Positions 52,694 to 58,330 of a stretch of 64,000 nucleotides of DNA are shown in pieces (position 1 is the first letter of the stretch; each line of letters begins with the position of its first letter). A model generated the notes under the pieces. It was not told the origin of the DNA and did not search any database. It saw only the letters and a program-made list of their open reading frames with translations. The stretch is from an uncultured Ruminococcus sp. (GTDB taxonomy: Bacteria > Bacillota > Clostridia > Oscillospirales > Ruminococcaceae): the NCBI GenBank assembly GCA_946534605.1, contig CAMNCU010000003.1, positions 954-64,953 on the forward strand, in the 5' to 3' direction. Position numbers and translations under genes: made by a program.

Positions 52694-53185
52694 TCAGGGT
52701 ATGTTGTCCAGTTTTGTGACATAAATCTGTGAGAGTTTCAGACCGCAGGCGACGGAGACTGTCTGGTAGACGATTTCCTGAACGGTCACCGCGCCGCCGC
52801 CCTCACAGGCGACGACGACACCCGTCACTGCCGGAAGCGATACCGATTCGACAAGGGCTTCCTTCTTCGTACCGCCGACGGTAACATAACGGTTCTGGGA
52901 ATCCTGTGCATAATGACAGGTCTCACTGCCGGAAAGCGTCACCAGAACTTCCGCTCTGCCGACACCGTCAATCTGACAGAGCATTGCTGAAAGTTCCTTC
53001 TGGAGTGCCGTCCGGTAGGCTTCCTGACTGGTGATTTCCGGAAGTTCTGCGGATTCCGGCGTTTCTTCCTGGCAGGACGACAGAACCGTGCAGAGAATCC
53101 CAATCAGCCCGATGAATACCAGAATATGCACCAGATATTCTTTTTTAAGGCTGGCTTTGTACCGATTCCAGAATTTCCGAAACAT
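52694..53185 (-). CDS. spoIIIAG: Stage III sporulation protein AG
   Basis: 163 aa with an N-terminal TM segment and the conserved C-terminus VTGVVVACEGGG...VSVACGLKLSQIYV. Confidence 0.8.
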   Translation of the reverse strand: MFRKFWNRYKASLKKEYLVHILVFIGLIGILCTVLSSCQEETPESAELPEITSQEAYRTALQKELSAMLCQIDGVGRAEVLVTLSGSETCHYAQDSQNRYVTVGGTKKEALVESVSLPAVTGVVVACEGGGAVTVQEIVYQTVSVACGLKLSQIYVTKLDNIP

Positions 53186-53600
53186 GAAGATTCACCCCCT
53201 CACCGAGCAGTTCCCGGAGCGTTCTGAGCGTCTGCTGAAAGTCGTCACAGGTCACACTGACATCACTAATAGATATGCAGTGATTCTCGTCAATATGCAG
53301 AGAAACGGAAATTTCGCTGCAGGAAATGCCCTTCTGCTCCAGAACGGAAGCAAGGGTCTGTTTTACGGTCTGTTCGGTGAGAGCGAGGGCGGTGCGGTCA
53401 GCCTGTGACTGCTGAACACTTCCCGGAATATCAGAGAATTCCGGACGGACAAACGCCGGAAGCAGGCTCACCAGAAACATCAGCGAAACCAGAAAGCGCA
53501 CCTGTTTCCGGAGTGCGTTTTCCGGACAGAGGAACAAGCAGACCGAGACGGCAATACTCAGCAGGCAGACGGTCAGCACGGAAGATTTCAGTGTTTCCAA
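53145..53600 (-). CDS. spoIIIAF: Stage III sporulation protein AF
   Basis: 151 aa from TTG 53600, 6 nt after AAAGGAG. Two N-terminal TM segments, as in SpoIIIAF. The track's ATG 53699 has no RBS and would translate a hairpin repeat. Confidence 0.65.
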   Translation of the reverse strand: METLKSSVLTVCLLSIAVSVCLFLCPENALRKQVRFLVSLMFLVSLLPAFVRPEFSDIPGSVQQSQADRTALALTEQTVKQTLASVLEQKGISCSEISVSLHIDENHCISISDVSVTCDDFQQTLRTLRELLGEGVNLHVSEILESVQSQP

Positions 53601-53628
53601 GTTTATCTCCTTTCTGGCTTGCACCTTT

Positions 53629-53751
53629 GTGAACAGATGAGAATCACCGTCAAGGGGCTGGCTTTTAAGCCCCTTGCGGTTATTCTTGTTCACACACATG
53701 TTTTACCGCAATATATTTCTATATATTATATAGCCACTTGCGGTAATTTTT
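53629..53751. repeat. Structured module A: long imperfect hairpin plus a second hairpin with an AT-palindrome loop and T-run
   Basis: Hairpin 53629..53693 (GTGAACA...TGTTCAC, with inner CAAGGGGCT / AGCCCCTTG). Hairpin TACCGCAA 53704..53711 / TTGCGGTA 53738..53745, whose loop contains CTATATATTATATAG, followed by ATTTTT. Confidence 0.6.
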
Positions 53752-53862
53752 GCGGCAATCCGGCGGCAGAGGGCGGCACGGCTGAACGCGCGTTCAAAAA
53801 TGAAAAATGTAAAGTCGACACGACAAAATCAGGGGGAAGATGCCCTTTTCTGGTTTTGCGTT

Positions 53863-53972
53863 TGTCAATGAACGAGCGGCAGGGTTACAGGGAACGGACT
53901 TTAAGTCCCCTGTTGCTCATTGACAGGGACAATATTTTTCTATATTATATAGGGTGATTTCCCTGTTTTTTT
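53863..53972. repeat. Structured module B (diverged copy of module A)
   Basis: Hairpin 53863..53925 (TGTCAATGA...TCATTGACA, inner ...GGACTTTAAGTCC...). Hairpin ACAGGGA 53923..53929 / TCCCTGT 53960..53966, whose loop contains CTATATTATATAG, followed by a T-run. Confidence 0.6.
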
Positions 53973-54013
53973 CCCTAGGCAGCAAAACAATACTAACTGA
54001 CCGGGAGAAAACT

Positions 54014-54156
54014 TGCGCAAAACGAAGATTTTGTGCAGTTCCTGAATACGGCTTCCACCCGGGTGGAAAAAACGTTCACCCGAGTGAACAGAATTTGTAA
54101 ACTCGAGTTTACAAAATGTTGAGTCGACTCAACAAAAATGTGACATCAATGTCACA
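54014..54156. repeat. Phased array of six different short palindromes/hairpins directly after the spoIIIAE stop
   Basis: 54014..54037 TGCGCAAAA-cgaaga-TTTTGTGCA. 54053..54068 TTCCACCCGGGTGGAA. 54074..54089 GTTCACCCGAGTGAAC. 54094..54115 TTTGTAAACTCGAGTTTACAAA. 54118..54133 GTTGAGTCGACTCAAC. 54139..54156 TGTGACATCAATGTCACA. Confidence 0.7.
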
Positions 54157-54164
54157 AAATCCCG

Positions 54165-55175
54165 TCATGTACTGCTCACCGCCGCCAGAATCCCCGTACT
54201 CACACAGAACATCACCCCGAATGAAGCCGAGACCGAAAACCCTACCGAAATCATCGCTTCCAGATTCCGGAACAGCCTCTGCAACGATTCCAGCGCGAAG
54301 ACTTCTGATACTGCCGCCGCTGTCCCCGTCAGTATCTTCCAGAGAAAAAATTCGATAATTATCGGCAGTAATATCGATAAGACCGCGATAACCCCCGTCA
54401 TCCCGGCAGTCGATTTCAGAACGTTCAGACTGCCCAGCACTGCCGCGTAAGCGTCCGATACTGCTCCCCCGACAAACGGCACAGCCCCGGCTATCGCGTA
54501 TTTCGCAGCTTTTGTTCCGGCTCTGTCCGCCGTTACGGAAACGACACTCTGCACTGACAGAAAGCCCAGAAACAACGCCATCAGAAAGCCAAGCACCCAG
54601 ACCGTGAACTTCTGAAACAGCGTCAGAATACCGTTCAGAGAGAGTTCCGGCGTGACTGCCTCCGTCAGACTGACTGCCAGTCCCATCGTCAGCACCGGAA
54701 ACAGCACCCGAACGGCGATTTCCAGCGCAAGATTACAGAGCAGCAGCACTGCCCCCTGATACCCTGCCGAAGCTGTCACATGTCCGCTGACCGCCAGAAT
54801 CCCCCCGAAGATTCCCGAGAAGGTCACCATAAAATCTGCCGAATGCGTCAGCACTTCCGCTGCCTGCTGAAAGGCTTCCGTCAGCGGACTGATGAGAATC
54901 CCCACCGCACACAGTACCGCTGTGACATCACAGATTTTTGAGATTCCGGATTTCTCGCTCCGGAGACTTCCGGCAAGCGCGGAAAGCAGAATCACCCCTG
55001 TGAGCAGTCCGAGCGTCTGCAAGGGCGCGGAAATCCGGTTCTGTACCATTTCCAGAACCTGTCCGGCGAATTCCGGAAGCTGTAATTCCGACAGCGATTC
55101 TGTATCGGGAATTTCCGCCGGCGCGTCTTCCAGAAGCGTTTTCAAAATTTCATCATAAGTATAGTCCTGATTCAC
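54165..55175 (-). CDS. spoIIIAE: Stage III sporulation protein AE
   Basis: 336 aa polytopic membrane protein, Gly/Ala-rich TM segments. Position and overlap with spoIIIAD match the operon order. Confidence 0.8.
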   Translation of the reverse strand: MNQDYTYDEILKTLLEDAPAEIPDTESLSELQLPEFAGQVLEMVQNRISAPLQTLGLLTGVILLSALAGSLRSEKSGISKICDVTAVLCAVGILISPLTEAFQQAAEVLTHSADFMVTFSGIFGGILAVSGHVTASAGYQGAVLLLCNLALEIAVRVLFPVLTMGLAVSLTEAVTPELSLNGILTLFQKFTVWVLGFLMALFLGFLSVQSVVSVTADRAGTKAAKYAIAGAVPFVGGAVSDAYAAVLGSLNVLKSTAGMTGVIAVLSILLPIIIEFFLWKILTGTAAAVSEVFALESLQRLFRNLEAMISVGFSVSASFGVMFCVSTGILAAVSST

Positions 55176-57157: not shown

Positions 57158-57187
57158 ATCTTATGCACAGCCTGTCCGTTTTATGAC
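57158..57187 (-). promoter_or_regulatory. Sigma-E-like sporulation promoter of spoIIIA
   Basis: Minus strand: GTCATA (57187..57182), 16-nt spacer, CATAAGAT (57165..57158). Compare the sigma-E consensus ATA-N16-18-CATACAnT. Confidence 0.4.
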
Positions 57188-57188
57188 A

Positions 57189-57222
57189 GAAAAACGGCTC
57201 ACCCGTAGGCAAGCCGCTTTTC
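57189..57222 (-). terminator. Terminator of the dockerin/serpin gene string
   Basis: Minus-strand hairpin AAAAGCGGCT...AGCCGTTTTT followed by a T-rich tract. Confidence 0.45.
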
Positions 57223-57268: not shown

Positions 57269-58297
57269 TTATTCTGTCAGACCGACAATCATTTTCATAA
57301 TCGTCAGAGAATCGGAAGCGTCGATTTTCTCGTCCTTGTTGGCATCCGCGGCGAGTTCCTGCGCAGAATTCAGCTTTTCTTTGCCGAGAATTGCTTTATT
57401 GAGAATAATCACATCCAGAATATTCAGTTTGTCGTCCAGATTCAAATCCCCGGCTTTGATTTCTACTGCTGCATCTGTAGGGAAAATTTCTTCCGGGTCA
57501 GGCTTTTTCACTATACGGAATTCAAAATCACATAATTCCAAAAAGCCCTGTTCCTGACAGTAATTTTTTATCCGGTCAATGTCTTCCTTTGTGTATGCTG
57601 TCACCGCTATGCTCATGCCTGTAACATTGAAAATACTCCCGTAATGATTGCGGGATACAAAACCCTCATATCCGTTGCTTTCCATGAATGCCTGAATCTG
57701 TTTTGCAGCCTCTGTTATGGACATTACCAGATTCTCATCCATCTGATAGACAAGATGATAGTCAATCGTATATTTTTCCGAAAAGCCCTGTTCTTCGCAG
57801 TAAGCTTCCATCAATTCTTTTATTTTTGTGCTTGCACACATGACAGTGAGAGAATTGTGGAAATAATCATAGAAAACGCGGTATGCATAGTCAGCCCCTG
57901 CCAGTTCACCGAGATATTTTTCCGTCTGCAATGCGGCGGAAATCAGCGCGTTCTTTTCTTCTTCGGGAAGTTCCGGAAGAATTTCACCGTCAAATTTCAG
58001 GAAAAACTGATATGTCACACCGTCTGTCAGATTTTCCTGCTGACAATATTCCATCATGTTGCTTTTTACATTTTCATAATGCGCCTGACTTCCGGTGTTT
58101 ACTACAACAGAAATGAGGTTCTGTTCTTCGTCACAGGTGATAGTATACAGCTGTACTGACGGCGGAATTGCATCTGCAATCTGATTGCAGATACTTTGTA
58201 CTGAAATTTCCGTTTCTCCGGCGAAAACGGGAATACTGATTTCGGACTGTATACAGCACAGGAACGCCAGCACAGCGGCTAAGAGTTTCTTTTTCAT
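57269..58297 (-). CDS. Secreted protein: three 'YCxEQGF' repeat modules plus a C-terminal dockerin
   Basis: ATG 58297 after GAGGTG, then a signal peptide. Modules end in MEYCQQENL, MEAYCEEQGF and KNYCQEQGF. Dockerin KAGDLNLDDKLNILDVIILNKAILGKEKLNSAQELAADANKDEKIDASDSLTIMKMIVGL (57272..57457). Confidence 0.65.
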   Translation of the reverse strand: MKKKLLAAVLAFLCCIQSEISIPVFAGETEISVQSICNQIADAIPPSVQLYTITCDEEQNLISVVVNTGSQAHYENVKSNMMEYCQQENLTDGVTYQFFLKFDGEILPELPEEEKNALISAALQTEKYLGELAGADYAYRVFYDYFHNSLTVMCASTKIKELMEAYCEEQGFSEKYTIDYHLVYQMDENLVMSITEAAKQIQAFMESNGYEGFVSRNHYGSIFNVTGMSIAVTAYTKEDIDRIKNYCQEQGFLELCDFEFRIVKKPDPEEIFPTDAAVEIKAGDLNLDDKLNILDVIILNKAILGKEKLNSAQELAADANKDEKIDASDSLTIMKMIVGLTE

Positions 58298-58330
58298 AAA
58301 AAGCACCTCGTTTCTGAAAATTTAAATAAT

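What the first reader, a model, noticed from the sequence alone, without database searches (positions are those of the whole stretch)
53601..54164. A ~560-nt ORF-free, densely structured insert splits the spoIIIA operon between spoIIIAE and spoIIIAF
Elsewhere in this window the spoIIIA genes are tightly packed. AA/AB, AD/AE and AC/AD overlap by 4 nt, AF overlaps AG, and the other gaps are under 30 nt. That matches the compact eight-gene operon known from Bacillus and Clostridia. In contrast, about 560 nt separate the spoIIIAE stop (54165) from the best spoIIIAF start (TTG 53600, 6 nt after AAAGGAG).

This stretch has no ORF with a ribosome-binding site. Nearly all of it is inverted repeats: two paralogous two-hairpin modules, a 14-bp perfect palindrome (TGAACGCGCGTTCA, 53783..53796), a triplicated TTGCGG(T/C)AAT motif (53704..53758), and a phased palindrome array. 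The insert could hold one or more small RNAs, a terminator/promoter switch that uncouples AA-AE from AF-AH, or a nest of palindromic repeat elements. I do not recognise it as any named RNA family.
Basis: partly seen in the sequence, partly recalled or inferred. Interest (0 to 1): 0.72.

Follow-up and report, generated by a model that had tools for sequence, protein, structure and literature searches.

The report
Captured phage replication origins inside spoIIIA
The 564-base gap in this sporulation operon is not an RNA gene: it is a patchwork of phage DNA signals, including two orphan copies of a phage replication origin, one almost identical to the origin of a present-day phage.

Summary
A 564-nt ORF-poor, palindrome-dense spacer (53601-54164) separates spoIIIAE from spoIIIAF. 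It is identical in independent assemblies. Relatives with 66-69% identical SpoIIIAE have a 14-19 nt junction instead.

The RNA or switch reading is not supported. There is no Rfam hit and no sigE/sigK-type -10 motif, and the hairpins are weak.

The two "paralogous modules" match the non-coding region just downstream of the primase-helicase gene in a large family of Clostridia and Firmicutes phages.
- Module 2 is 93-96% identical over 153-173 nt to one phage contig.
- An HMM built only from two other phages finds module 1 (E=3e-17) and module 2 (E=5e-7), and nothing else in the 64 kb.

That phage region looks like an iteron-type origin of the SaPI kind. Short words lie in both orientations around an AT-only palindrome, followed by a GC hairpin. 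The words change together with the primase C-terminal HTH.

The module-2 core is 120/125 identical between two host species whose four-fold sites are only 60% identical (P~7e-21). It is equally close to the phage copy. So it is either constrained or repeatedly refreshed from phage.

One of the phased palindromes matches 25 nt inside a phage DUF3102 gene. Any function in the host is unproven.

The parts
54165..55175 (-). spoIIIAE (336 aa). Its stop codon is the upstream boundary of the spacer.
   Evidence: ORF; TIGR02829, E=3.5e-29; homologues carry PF09546.
54139..54156 (.). Palindrome 1, TGTGACATCAATGTCACA. It has the frame TTTTGT-N4-T(C/T)(G/A)A-N4-ACATTTT and looks like a weak terminator on the sense strand.
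   Evidence: The RNA hairpin is 7 bp with a 4-nt loop, -7.9 kcal/mol.
54117..54134 (.). Palindrome 2, TGTTGAGTCGACTCAACA.
   Evidence: -7.6 kcal/mol. The exact 18-mer is absent from the viral contigs.
54094..54115 (.). Palindrome 3, TTTGTAAACTCGAGTTTACAAA. With its flanks, the 25 nt ATTTTGTAAACTCGAGTTTACAAAT are identical to a site inside a phage DUF3102-like gene.
   Evidence: 14 viral contigs from two lineages; DUF3102, PcfJ and Gp157 context.
54074..54089 (.). Palindrome 4, GTTCACCCGAGTGAAC (one G-T position).
   Evidence: -6.9 kcal/mol.
54053..54068 (.). Palindrome 5, TTCCACCCGGGTGGAA.
   Evidence: -7.1 kcal/mol.
54014..54037 (.). Degenerate palindrome A' (TGCACAAAATCTTCGTTTTGCGCA). It is the counterpart of the perfect TGCACAAAATAATGATTTTGTGCA in the sister species.
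   Evidence: The perfect form occurs in intergenic DNA of 5 unrelated viral contigs.
53840..53987 (-). Module 1, an orphan phage-origin module of the L108/L107 type. Forward words AGGGAAA lie at 53970-53976 and 53958-53964. The AT palindrome CTATATTATATAG lies at 53940-53952. Inverted words CCCTG lie at 53924-53928, 53888-53892 and 53880-53884. The inverted repeat GTCAATGA/TCATTGAC lies at 53917-53924 and 53864-53871. A hairpin lies at 53887-53913. A decayed former RBS (AAAAGGG) lies at about 53843-53849.
   Evidence: nhmmer with phage-only HMMs gave E=3e-17 (L107+L108) and E=2e-11 (L108 alone). blastn to L108 gave 80% over 71 nt, and to L107 84% over 62 nt. Alignment A2; coordinates.
53920..53948 (+). 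Sigma70-like promoter match on the antisense strand of module 1 (TTGACA-17-TATTAT, 11 of 12).
   Evidence: This is a consensus match only, and it is not conserved in the wider phage family.
53808..53825 (.). Palindrome 6, a broken unit of the same frame (TGTAAAGTCGACACGACA). The orthologue in the sister species is a perfect but different palindrome, TGTAGAATCGATTCTACA.
53783..53796 (.). Palindrome 7, TGAACGCGCGTTCA (14-nt perfect).
   Evidence: It is not conserved in the sister species.
53601..53780 (-). Module 2, an orphan phage-origin module of the L106 type. Forward words TGCCGCC lie at 53772-53778 and 53762-53768, and CCGCAA at 53750-53755 and 53738-53743. The AT palindrome CTATATATTATATAG lies at 53719-53733. 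An inverted word TTGCGG lies at 53706-53711, and a forward CCGCAA at 53674-53679. The inverted repeat TGTGAACA/TGTTCACA lies at 53687-53694 and 53628-53635. A GC hairpin lies at 53646-53680. The RBS AAAGGAG at 53607-53613 serves spoIIIAF.
   Evidence: blastn to phage contig IMGVR_UViG_3300028454_000257 gave 93% over 173 nt (E=4e-70) and 96% over 153 nt. nhmmer gave E=1.3e-32, or E=5e-7 with L106 left out. Coordinates. The core 53636-53760 is 120/125 identical to the sister species.
53689..53717 (+). Sigma70-like promoter match on the antisense strand of module 2 (TTCACA-17-TATATT, 10 of 12).
   Evidence: Consensus match only.
53145..53600 (-). spoIIIAF, with TTG start at 53598-53600. Gene callers wrongly extend it to the ATG at 53699, inside module 2.
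   Evidence: The extended 184-aa call appears in L092.

Best explanation
The spacer is a DNA-level mosaic of phage cis-acting sites, not an RNA gene.

It holds two tandem orphan copies, in the same orientation, of the complete non-coding region that lies between the primase-helicase gene and rusA in a family of Firmicutes phages. Faecalibacterium phage FP_Lugh is a cultured member of that family. Short operator-like palindromes surround the two copies.

In the phages this region reads as an iteron-type replication origin. Four to fourteen copies of a phage-specific word start within the last codons of the initiator gene. They lie in both orientations around an AT-only palindrome, which is the presumed unwinding element, and a conserved GC hairpin follows. 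The words would be read by the C-terminal helix-turn-helix of the primase-helicase, which would load on either side of the AT stretch, as described for SaPI Rep and PriRep.

The two host modules carry different words, CCGCAA and AGGGAAA. They are therefore origins of two different phage specificities, and no initiator gene is nearby.

What is shown: the homology; the anatomy; the linkage between words and initiator in phages; the restriction of the insert to a two-species clade; and the non-neutral conservation of the module-2 core.

What is inferred:
1. The phage region is an origin.
2. The DNA moved from phage to host. The sister species keeps the palindrome that contains the phage primase stop codon.
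3. AF-AH are still expressed by read-through from the spoIIIAA promoter, using the RBS that module 2 brought with it.
4. The core stays phage-like because it still interacts with infecting phages, either through selection on binding of the phage initiator or through repeated gene conversion by phage DNA.
For: Homology of the host modules to phage DNA:
- Module 2 matches a phage contig over 173 nt at 93% (E=4e-70). This is the only similarity between that phage locus and the window.
- In the phage the match spans exactly from the primase stop codon to the rusA RBS.
- HMMs built only from phage sequences recover both modules at full length, and nothing else in the 64 kb.
- L108 and L107 share module 1's words, AT core and flanking repeats.

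The architecture is general in this phage family:
- It recurs downstream of the ~740-aa primase in about 100 phage loci and in FP_Lugh.

Words travel with the initiator:
- Word type follows the primase C-terminal HTH without exception in about 65 loci, whatever lies downstream.
- In L035 versus L041 the primase N-terminal 2 kb is 92% identical and its last 600 nt 72%. The iteron arrays are unalignable, and the stretch from the AT palindrome to rusA is 97% identical. So the C-terminal domain and its iterons swap as one cassette.

Precedent:
- The SaPI origin is defined the same way in PMC9371898.

History in the host:
- The insert is absent in relatives with 66-69% identical AE.
- Four-fold-site identity between the two insert-bearing species is 60%, while the module-2 core is 120/125 identical (P=7e-21).
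- The phage copy is equally close, 4-5 differences in each comparison.
- The adjoining spacer is only 55-60% identical.
- Palindrome 3 has a 25-nt identity to a phage DUF3102 site.
Against: - No experiment shows that the phage region is an origin. The word-HTH linkage could partly reflect physical adjacency, and the region could instead (or also) be an operator or promoter region.
- Module 2 has only 4-6 words, at the low end of what is described for SaPI origins.
- No mechanism is known that would deliver exactly the intergenic region twice, without any coding DNA, to one host site.
- No close phage source was found for module 1 (best match 62% identity) or for four of the five phased palindromes.
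- The conservation of the core does not show what, if anything, it does in the host.
- Read-through expression of AF-AH is assumed, not shown.
Confidence: 0.7

Rival explanations
1. The phage region, and so the host modules, are a transcriptional control region rather than an origin. In this reading they hold operators and a promoter or terminator for the rusA to late-regulator to terminase genes. The primase C-terminal HTH, or another phage protein, would act as a regulator, and the host copy is a leftover of that region.
For: - The region sits at the boundary between the replication genes and the rusA / DUF1492-sigma70_r4 / terS genes.
- It contains a large hairpin and AT-rich -10-like sequences.
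- Sigma70-like matches occur in modules 1 and 2 and in L107 (read from the sequence).
Against: - The good promoter matches point away from the downstream genes and are not conserved across the family.
- There are 7-14 words in both orientations, starting inside the initiator gene. They swap together with its C-terminal domain while the downstream genes stay the same. That is the pattern of initiator plus iterons (PMC9371898).
- The hairpin has no adjacent U-run.
Confidence: 0.13
2. The insert works as a terminator/promoter switch or mRNA-stability element. It would uncouple spoIIIAA-AE from AF-AH, with the serial hairpins ending or protecting the upstream transcript and a new start serving AF-AH.
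For: - Palindromes 1, 2 and 4 fit a hairpin plus T-run consensus on the sense strand. The scan found 9 terminator-like sites against 1.5 expected.
- B. subtilis and C. difficile do have an internal spoIIIA promoter, in front of AG (PMC4605598).
- The five units share one geometry, a 7-bp stem and 4-nt loop.
Against: - The hairpins are weak, -6 to -8 kcal/mol.
- The sense strand has no sigma70-like promoter and no CATA -10 core anywhere in the spacer. The candidate spoIIIAA promoter does have one.
- Close relatives manage with a 14-19 nt junction.
- This reading does not explain the phage homology, or why the core is conserved to match the phage.
Confidence: 0.1
3. The modules encode one or more structured small RNAs or a riboregulator. 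The differing words at equivalent positions would then be compensatory changes in RNA helices.
For: - The fold z-score is -8.
- The inverted-repeat arms and the GC hairpin differ in sequence but keep pairing between module 1, module 2 and the phage versions.
- Antisense sigma70-like promoters are present.
Against: - No Rfam family matches in the host or in the phages.
- The words also occur as same-orientation direct copies upstream of the AT palindrome and inside the primase coding end. RNA pairing does not need that, but iterons do.
- Palindromy is equally expected for DNA sites bound by dimers or for hairpins formed in single-stranded DNA.
- The architecture is tied to an initiator gene, not to a conserved transcript boundary.
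Confidence: 0.05
4. The spacer is inert debris. Phage DNA was inserted by illegitimate recombination and is merely tolerated because it supplies an RBS. The high identity of module 2 would reflect a very recent transfer between the two host lineages or from a phage, not any function.
For: - The insert is confined to two species.
- Module 1 looks partly decayed: its hairpin is shortened and its former RBS is degenerate.
- Palindrome 6 is broken.
- Phage homology of 50 bp or more is enough for recombination with infecting phage (PMC5615212).
Against: - The shared insert has the same boundaries in both species, and its flanks have diverged to 55-60% identity. So the insertion is old while the core is 96-98% identical.
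- Only cis-acting sites are kept. These are complete intergenic origins and a 25-nt palindrome taken from the middle of a phage gene, with no coding DNA, which is not what random debris looks like.
- This rival overlaps with the gene-conversion branch of the best explanation.
Confidence: 0.2
5. The elements are generic REP/BIME- or MITE-like palindromic repeats of this genome.
For: They are palindrome-rich and intergenic, and the units share a repeated frame.
Against: - No other copy of the module core, the frame motif or the phage-origin HMM exists in the other 63 kb.
- No hit was found in PLSDB plasmids or GenBank phages by blastn.
- The metagenome pattern scan returned only the orthologous locus.
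Confidence: 0.02

Closest known systems
Replication origins of staphylococcal pathogenicity islands (SaPI ori, with Rep or PriRep self-loading helicase)
   Same: In both cases short iterons begin immediately downstream of the initiator ORF. They lie on both sides of a central AT-rich stretch in opposite orientations. They are read by a C-terminal winged-helix/HTH domain of a primase-helicase, and their specificity differs between elements (PMC9371898).
   Different: - The initiator here is a PriCT_2 + AAA_25 protein of phrog_2597, not a SaPI Rep.
- The AT element is a compact perfect palindrome and is followed by a conserved GC hairpin.
- The copies in the window are orphans inside a host operon, with no initiator gene.
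- Replication activity is untested.
The non-coding region between the primase/helicase gene and rusA of Faecalibacterium phage FP_Lugh (MG711464.1, 13278-13543) and of the related uncultured phages L106-L108
   Same: This is the same family of element. The gene order is helicase, primase-helicase, gap, RusA, small regulator, TerS. The gap holds word repeats, CTATATATAATATAC and a long GC hairpin. L106 is 93-96% identical to module 2.
   Different: The FP_Lugh gap is unannotated and uses different words (CGGAAAATAGC). In the phage the element lies next to its initiator, whereas in the window it lies between spoIIIAE and spoIIIAF.
Phage-encoded resistance (PER): cloned phage origins that protect Lactococcus and Streptococcus hosts
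   Same: In both cases a phage origin is present in the host in trans, without the rest of the phage. The known consequence of such a construct is interference with phage replication (PMC8965321).
   Different: PER is a laboratory construct on multicopy plasmids. Here the copies are natural, single-copy and chromosomal, and no resistance phenotype is known.
REP/BIME palindromes between genes of enterobacterial operons (for example malE-malF). This comparison rests on my own knowledge.
   Same: Both are arrays of short palindromes inside an operon that could act on mRNA 3' ends.
   Different: REP elements are present in hundreds of copies per genome and share one consensus. Here the units are unique to this locus, and each has a different inner sequence.
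Internal promoter of the spoIIIA locus, in front of spoIIIAG, in B. subtilis and C. difficile
   Same: It shows that the eight-gene operon is not always a single transcription unit (PMC4605598).
   Different: That promoter lies before AG and is sigE-dependent. The spacer here lies before AF and has no sigE/sigK-type -10 core.

Membership tests
Iteron-type origin of a self-loading primase-helicase (SaPI-type) | The element lies immediately downstream of the initiator (rep or pri-rep) ORF. | tested here: not met
   This is met in every phage relative; the words even start in the last codons of the primase gene. It is not met in the window. tblastn finds no primase homologue in the 64 kb, and the modules lie between spoIIIAE and spoIIIAF. 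The host copies are therefore orphan origins, not a complete replicon.
Iteron-type origin of a self-loading primase-helicase (SaPI-type) | Several short iterons on both sides of the AT-rich centre, with the two sides pointing in opposite directions. | tested here: met
   Module 2 has four forward words upstream of the AT palindrome and one inverted word directly after it, plus one forward word and one degenerate inverted word further on. Module 1 has two forward words upstream and three inverted plus one forward downstream.
Iteron-type origin of a self-loading primase-helicase (SaPI-type) | A central AT-rich unwinding region. | tested here: met
   AT-only palindromes lie at 53719-53733 and 53940-53952, each with an AT-rich extension (GAAA(A/T)ATATT). 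An equivalent AT palindrome is found in most phage relatives.
Iteron-type origin of a self-loading primase-helicase (SaPI-type) | The iteron sequence is matched to the initiator's C-terminal DNA-binding domain. | tested here: met
   This was tested in the phage relatives only. Word type and HTH type agree in about 65 loci, and the C-terminal domain swaps together with its iteron array as one cassette. The test is comparative, not biochemical, and adjacency could contribute to the agreement.
Iteron-type origin of a self-loading primase-helicase (SaPI-type) | The element supports initiator-dependent replication. | not testable with these tools
   This needs a plasmid replication assay or marker-frequency analysis during infection.
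Any curated RNA family (Rfam 15) | A covariance-model match at the gathering score. | tested here: not met
   There was no match in the window or in 7 phage loci. At E<=10 only chance-level hits appeared.
REP/BIME/MITE-type dispersed palindromic repeats | Many copies at unrelated loci in the same genome. | tested here: not met
   No further copy was found in the 64-kb window. The whole genome could not be scanned.
Intrinsic terminator | A stable GC-rich hairpin directly followed by a U-run. | tested here: inconclusive
   Palindromes 1, 2 and 4 pass a loose consensus scan on the sense strand, but their stems are only -6.9 to -7.9 kcal/mol.
sigE/sigK-dependent sporulation promoter (like spoIIIA P1/P2) | A -10 element with a CATA core at the right distance from an ATA or AC -35 element. 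| tested here: not met
   No CATA occurs on the sense strand between 54164 and 53601 (sequence). The region upstream of spoIIIAA does show TCATAAA-N14-CATAAGAT.

The most novel reading that the evidence does not exclude
The spacer could be a natural chromosomal 'decoy shelf'. In this reading it is a stack of cis-acting sites copied from several phages: two origins with different iteron specificity, plus operator-like palindromes with different inner sequences. Selection would keep these sites matched to circulating phages because they capture, misdirect or sense phage DNA-binding proteins during infection. One example would be titration of the initiator. Another would be initiator-driven firing of replication inside the host chromosome, which would abort or slow the phage. 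That would be a natural, single-copy counterpart of the laboratory PER phenotype.
Probability: 0.13. Interest if true: 0.85.

Novelty: new variant of a known kind. Interest (0 to 1): 0.62.

Why it matters
Three things follow from the finding as it stands.
- It names the probable replication origin of a large, mostly uncultured family of gut and rumen Firmicutes phages, including FP_Lugh, where that gap is unannotated. It also gives a readable code linking iteron word to initiator HTH.
- It corrects an annotation artefact. spoIIIAF and the phage rusA are both called with 33 extra residues that are translated origin DNA.
- It links an uncultured phage contig to its likely Ruminococcus hosts.

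The more interesting point is the non-neutral conservation of an orphan origin in two host species. If that reflects selection, bacteria would be keeping phage origins as bait. That would be a defence principle so far known only from engineered plasmids, and it is directly testable by deleting 564 bases. If it instead reflects repeated gene conversion, the locus is a natural recorder of recombination between phage and chromosome.

Tried and rejected
Searches that found nothing:
- Rfam scans of the window and of the phage loci.
- blastn of the spacer against GenBank phages and PLSDB plasmids. The palindrome array alone gave only a chance hit.
- Protein searches with the peptide translated from module 2 on either strand, tried as a way to locate other copies.

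Searches that gave only chance matches:
- The metagenome pattern scan for the AT core found only the orthologous locus plus AT-rich chance matches.
- A word-spacing pattern for module 1 in the viral contigs.
- A two-unit frame pattern for the palindrome array. One hit, L192, is an unrelated iteron origin inside a replisome-organiser-like gene.
- The exact 18-mer of palindrome 2 gave no viral hit.

Readings considered and dropped:
- Invertible promoter: the inverted repeats enclose only about 26-30 nt.
- CRISPR-like array: the units are palindromes and no constant repeat alternates with variable spacers.
- parS or Noc-binding sites: palindromes 4 and 5 resemble parS half-sites but have 4 extra central bases. 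This comparison rests on memory and was not tested.
- Excision scar of a skin-like element: no att-like structure is present, and the homology is to an origin.
- Attenuator with alternative helices: no terminator follows.
- DnaA boxes: at best 7-8 of 9 matches, and not conserved.
Full report
OBSERVATION

The spoIIIA operon lies on the minus strand. NCBIfam matches support AA to AG. The genes are tightly packed: there are 4-nt overlaps at AA/AB, AC/AD and AD/AE, a 27-nt gap between AB and AC, a 14-nt gap between AG and AH, and AF overlaps AG. The exception is the stretch between the spoIIIAE stop (54165-54167) and the spoIIIAF start, which is 53601-54164, 564 nt. The AF start is TTG at 53598-53600, 6 nt after AAAGGAG, and it matches the start of AF in relatives.

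The region holds the densest cluster of palindromes in the window. The shared palindrome frame gives 5 hits against 0.02 expected, all inside the spacer. The RNA fold z-score is -8.0. GC content is 0.44, against 0.53-0.55 in the flanking genes.

The spacer is not an assembly artefact. It is identical in NCBI MAG GCA_002393815.1 and in an independent Logan assembly.

WHERE THE INSERT OCCURS

SpoIIIAE homologues were traced to their contigs.
- The nearest species, Ruminococcus sp. UBA7014, has 80% identical AE and about 82% DNA identity over the operon. Its spacer is 265 nt and is the same in 9 assemblies.
- Three further relatives with 66-69% identical AE have a normal 14-19 nt junction.

So the insert is confined to a two-species clade. 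The sister species' spacer aligns with window 53830-53601, which covers palindrome 6 and module 2. The window species additionally carries 54164-53831, which covers five phased palindromes and module 1. A degenerate copy of the sister's first palindrome sits in between, at 54014-54037.

WHAT THE MODULES ARE

A pattern taken from the AT-rich core found one viral contig, IMGVR_UViG_3300028454_000257 (loci L008, L009, L106), that carries module 2. The match is 173 nt at 93% (E=4e-70), or 96% over the central 153 nt. It is the only similarity between that phage locus and the window.

In the phage the matching stretch is exactly the non-coding gap between two genes. Upstream is a 744-aa DNA primase/helicase (PriCT_2 + AAA_25, phrog_2597). 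Downstream is rusA, followed by a DUF1492/sigma70_r4 regulator and the small terminase subunit. The primase stop codon lies inside the palindrome GTGTCACCCCCTGACAC. The sister host species keeps that palindrome, which suggests the DNA moved from phage to host. The homology ends at the RBS, and in the host that RBS now serves spoIIIAF.

Relatives of the phage RusA and primase gave 160 further phage loci. In most of them the primase gene is followed by 150-400 nt of non-coding DNA with the same plan:
- many copies, in both orientations, of a phage-specific word of the form "GC-rich 4-5-mer plus A-run" (GGAAAAT, GGACAAAG, CCGAAAAA, GTGAAAA, CCGCAAAA, TTGCGAAA, AGGGAAAA), starting within the last codons of the primase gene;
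- then an AT-only palindrome;
- then an inverted word;
- then a GC-rich hairpin flanked by a second inverted repeat;
- then the RBS of the next gene.

The cultured Faecalibacterium phage FP_Lugh has the same layout, and its 266-nt gap is unannotated.

The two closest relatives of the L106 phage carry different words.
- L107 (90% identical primase) uses ATTGCGAAA.
- L108 (72% identical primase) uses (T/G)AGGGAAAA.

Module 1 of the window shares with them its AT core (GAAATCACCCTATATAATATA), its words (AGGGAAA), and the motifs TCCCTGTCAATGAGC and CATTGACAAACGCAAA.

As an objective test, an HMM was built from L107 and L108 only. It hits the window at module 1 (53984-53844, E=3e-17) and at module 2 (53753-53613, E=5e-7). 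The next best hit anywhere in the 64 kb has E>0.5. The homology of both modules to this phage element is therefore secure.

WHY THE PHAGE ELEMENT IS READ AS A REPLICATION ORIGIN

First, in about 65 phage loci the word type follows the primase C-terminal helix-turn-helix without exception, whether rusA or a small extra ORF lies downstream:
- TEKTVRNRLK or GEKTIRNYIK goes with GGAAAA (7-10 copies);
- SEKTVRRYIK goes with GGACA (12-14 copies);
- SVDTVYNYID goes with CCGAAAA (9 copies);
- SDDTIRRHLK or SRDTAERRVK goes with CCGCAA (4-5 copies).

Second, two otherwise near-identical phages, L035 and L041, show a cassette swap. Their primase N-terminal 2 kb is 92% identical, the last 600 nt only 72%, and the word arrays cannot be aligned. 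The stretch from the AT palindrome to rusA is again 97% identical. The DNA-binding end of the initiator and its word array thus move together.

Third, this anatomy matches what is described for SaPI origins. There, 6-12 iterons lie immediately downstream of rep, with an AT-rich centre and iterons on the two sides in opposite orientation. They are read by a C-terminal winged-helix domain, and pri and rep are fused in SaPI5 (PMC9371898).

This inference is comparative and no replication assay exists. The main rival is that the region is a transcriptional control region.

THE HOST COPIES ARE NOT EVOLVING NEUTRALLY

Four-fold degenerate sites of the eight spoIIIA genes are 60% identical between the two host species (396 of 659). 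The part of the spacer next to module 2 is 55-60% identical. The 125-nt core of module 2 (53636-53760) is 120/125 identical, with a binomial P of 7e-21. That makes it more conserved than any coding stretch of the operon.

The phage copy is equally close: 4 differences to the window and 5 to the sister species. The pattern is star-like. The insertion has the same boundaries in both species and diverged flanks, so it looks old. The core must therefore be either under selection in the hosts or repeatedly overwritten by recombination with infecting phages. Homology of 50 bp or more is enough for such recombination in SPP1 (PMC5615212). Either way the locus is still interacting with phages. The data do not decide between the two explanations.

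THE PALINDROMES

The five phased units share the frame TTTTGT-N4-TCGA-N4-ACA(T/A)TTT with a 21-22 nt period. The inner 4+4 bases differ between units but remain complementary. As RNA, each would form a 7-bp stem with a 4-nt loop at only -6 to -8 kcal/mol.

Palindrome 3 with its flanks (25 nt) is identical to a site inside a DUF3102-like gene in 14 viral contigs. One of these, L211, has diverged flanks but keeps the palindrome. A Paenibacillus phage has a different 20-nt perfect palindrome at the same codons. One GenBank phage record carries both a DUF3102 homologue and a primase of this family.

The sister species' first palindrome, TGCACAAAAT-N4-ATTTTGTGCA, recurs in intergenic DNA of five unrelated viral contigs. 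No phage source was found for palindromes 1, 2, 4 and 5.

The spacer thus looks like a collection of phage protein-binding sites with no phage coding DNA. I cannot explain how such a collection arises.

WHAT THE SPACER IS NOT

- It matches no Rfam family.
- It has no other copy in the window.
- It has no sigE/sigK-type -10 core on the sense strand, whereas a good candidate (TCATAAA-N14-CATAAGAT) precedes spoIIIAA.
- It has no sigma70-like promoter on the sense strand. The two strong sigma70-like matches, 11 of 12 and 10 of 12, lie on the antisense strand inside the modules. L107 has one too, but the wider phage family does not. Their role is open.

I infer that AF-AH are expressed by read-through, with translation starting from the RBS brought in by module 2.

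VERDICT

The RNA and switch interpretations are not supported. The region consists of two orphan phage origins of different specificity plus phage-type palindromic sites, captured in a core sporulation operon.

The kind of element, an iteron origin, is known. The setting is unusual in three ways: the origins are orphan, they are stacked, and one is held close to the phage sequence across a host speciation. This leaves open a natural-decoy reading, to which I give about 13%.

Noticed in passing
L201-L214 (e.g. L202 3104-3123); L217 (Paenibacillus phage Pd_22F, MZ092003.1): DUF3102-like phage genes carry a 20-nt perfect palindrome at the same codons (around ..DFVNSSLQIG..) in distant lineages, with different sequences: TTGTAAACTCGAGTTTACAA and TTGCCGATACGTATCGGCAA. 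In L211 the flanking codons have diverged but the palindrome is unchanged. This suggests a DNA site embedded in the gene.
   Followed up: partly
L001 4610-4633; L194-L197 and L200; window 54014-54037 (degenerate): The palindrome TGCACAAAAT-N4-ATTTTGTGCA recurs in AT-rich intergenic DNA of five unrelated viral contigs. Fewer than one match would be expected by chance, so it is probably the operator of a widespread phage DNA-binding protein.
   Followed up: partly
window 53601-53699; L092 3477-4031; L008 1228-1929: Gene callers extend spoIIIAF to 184 aa, and the phage rusA to 233 aa, by starting at an ATG inside the origin module. This adds the same spurious N-terminal peptide, MCVNKNNRKGLKSQPLDGDS..., and is an annotation artefact present in public records.
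   Followed up: yes
window ~57160-57190, minus strand: There is a candidate sigE-type promoter for spoIIIAA, TCATAAA-N14-CATAAGAT, just after the terminator-like hairpin of the upstream dockerin-containing gene (57269-58306).
   Followed up: no
L035 vs L041 (also L013, L028 and others): Otherwise near-identical gut phages differ by a swapped cassette made of the primase C-terminal ~200 aa plus the adjoining iteron array. The GGACA type and the GGAAAA type are exchanged this way, which is a clean natural example of an initiator/origin specificity exchange.
   Followed up: yes
L218 7779-8044 (Faecalibacterium phage FP_Lugh, MG711464.1 13278-13543): The unannotated 266-nt gap between the AEP primase-helicase and RusA of a cultured phage has the same origin-like plan: CGGAAAATAGC words, CTATATATAATATAC and a long GC hairpin.
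   Followed up: partly
L192 ~1960-2040: An unrelated viral contig has three 21-nt direct repeats (TTTGACATTTTGTAAAATCGA) inside a 276-aa replisome-organiser-like gene. That is the classical 'origin inside the rep gene' arrangement. It turned up only as a chance hit of a pattern scan.
   Followed up: no
window 53689-53717 and 53920-53948, plus strand: Strong sigma70-like promoter matches point antisense to spoIIIAE from inside both origin modules. If they are active, they would make RNA antisense to the 3' end of spoIIIAE.
   Followed up: partly
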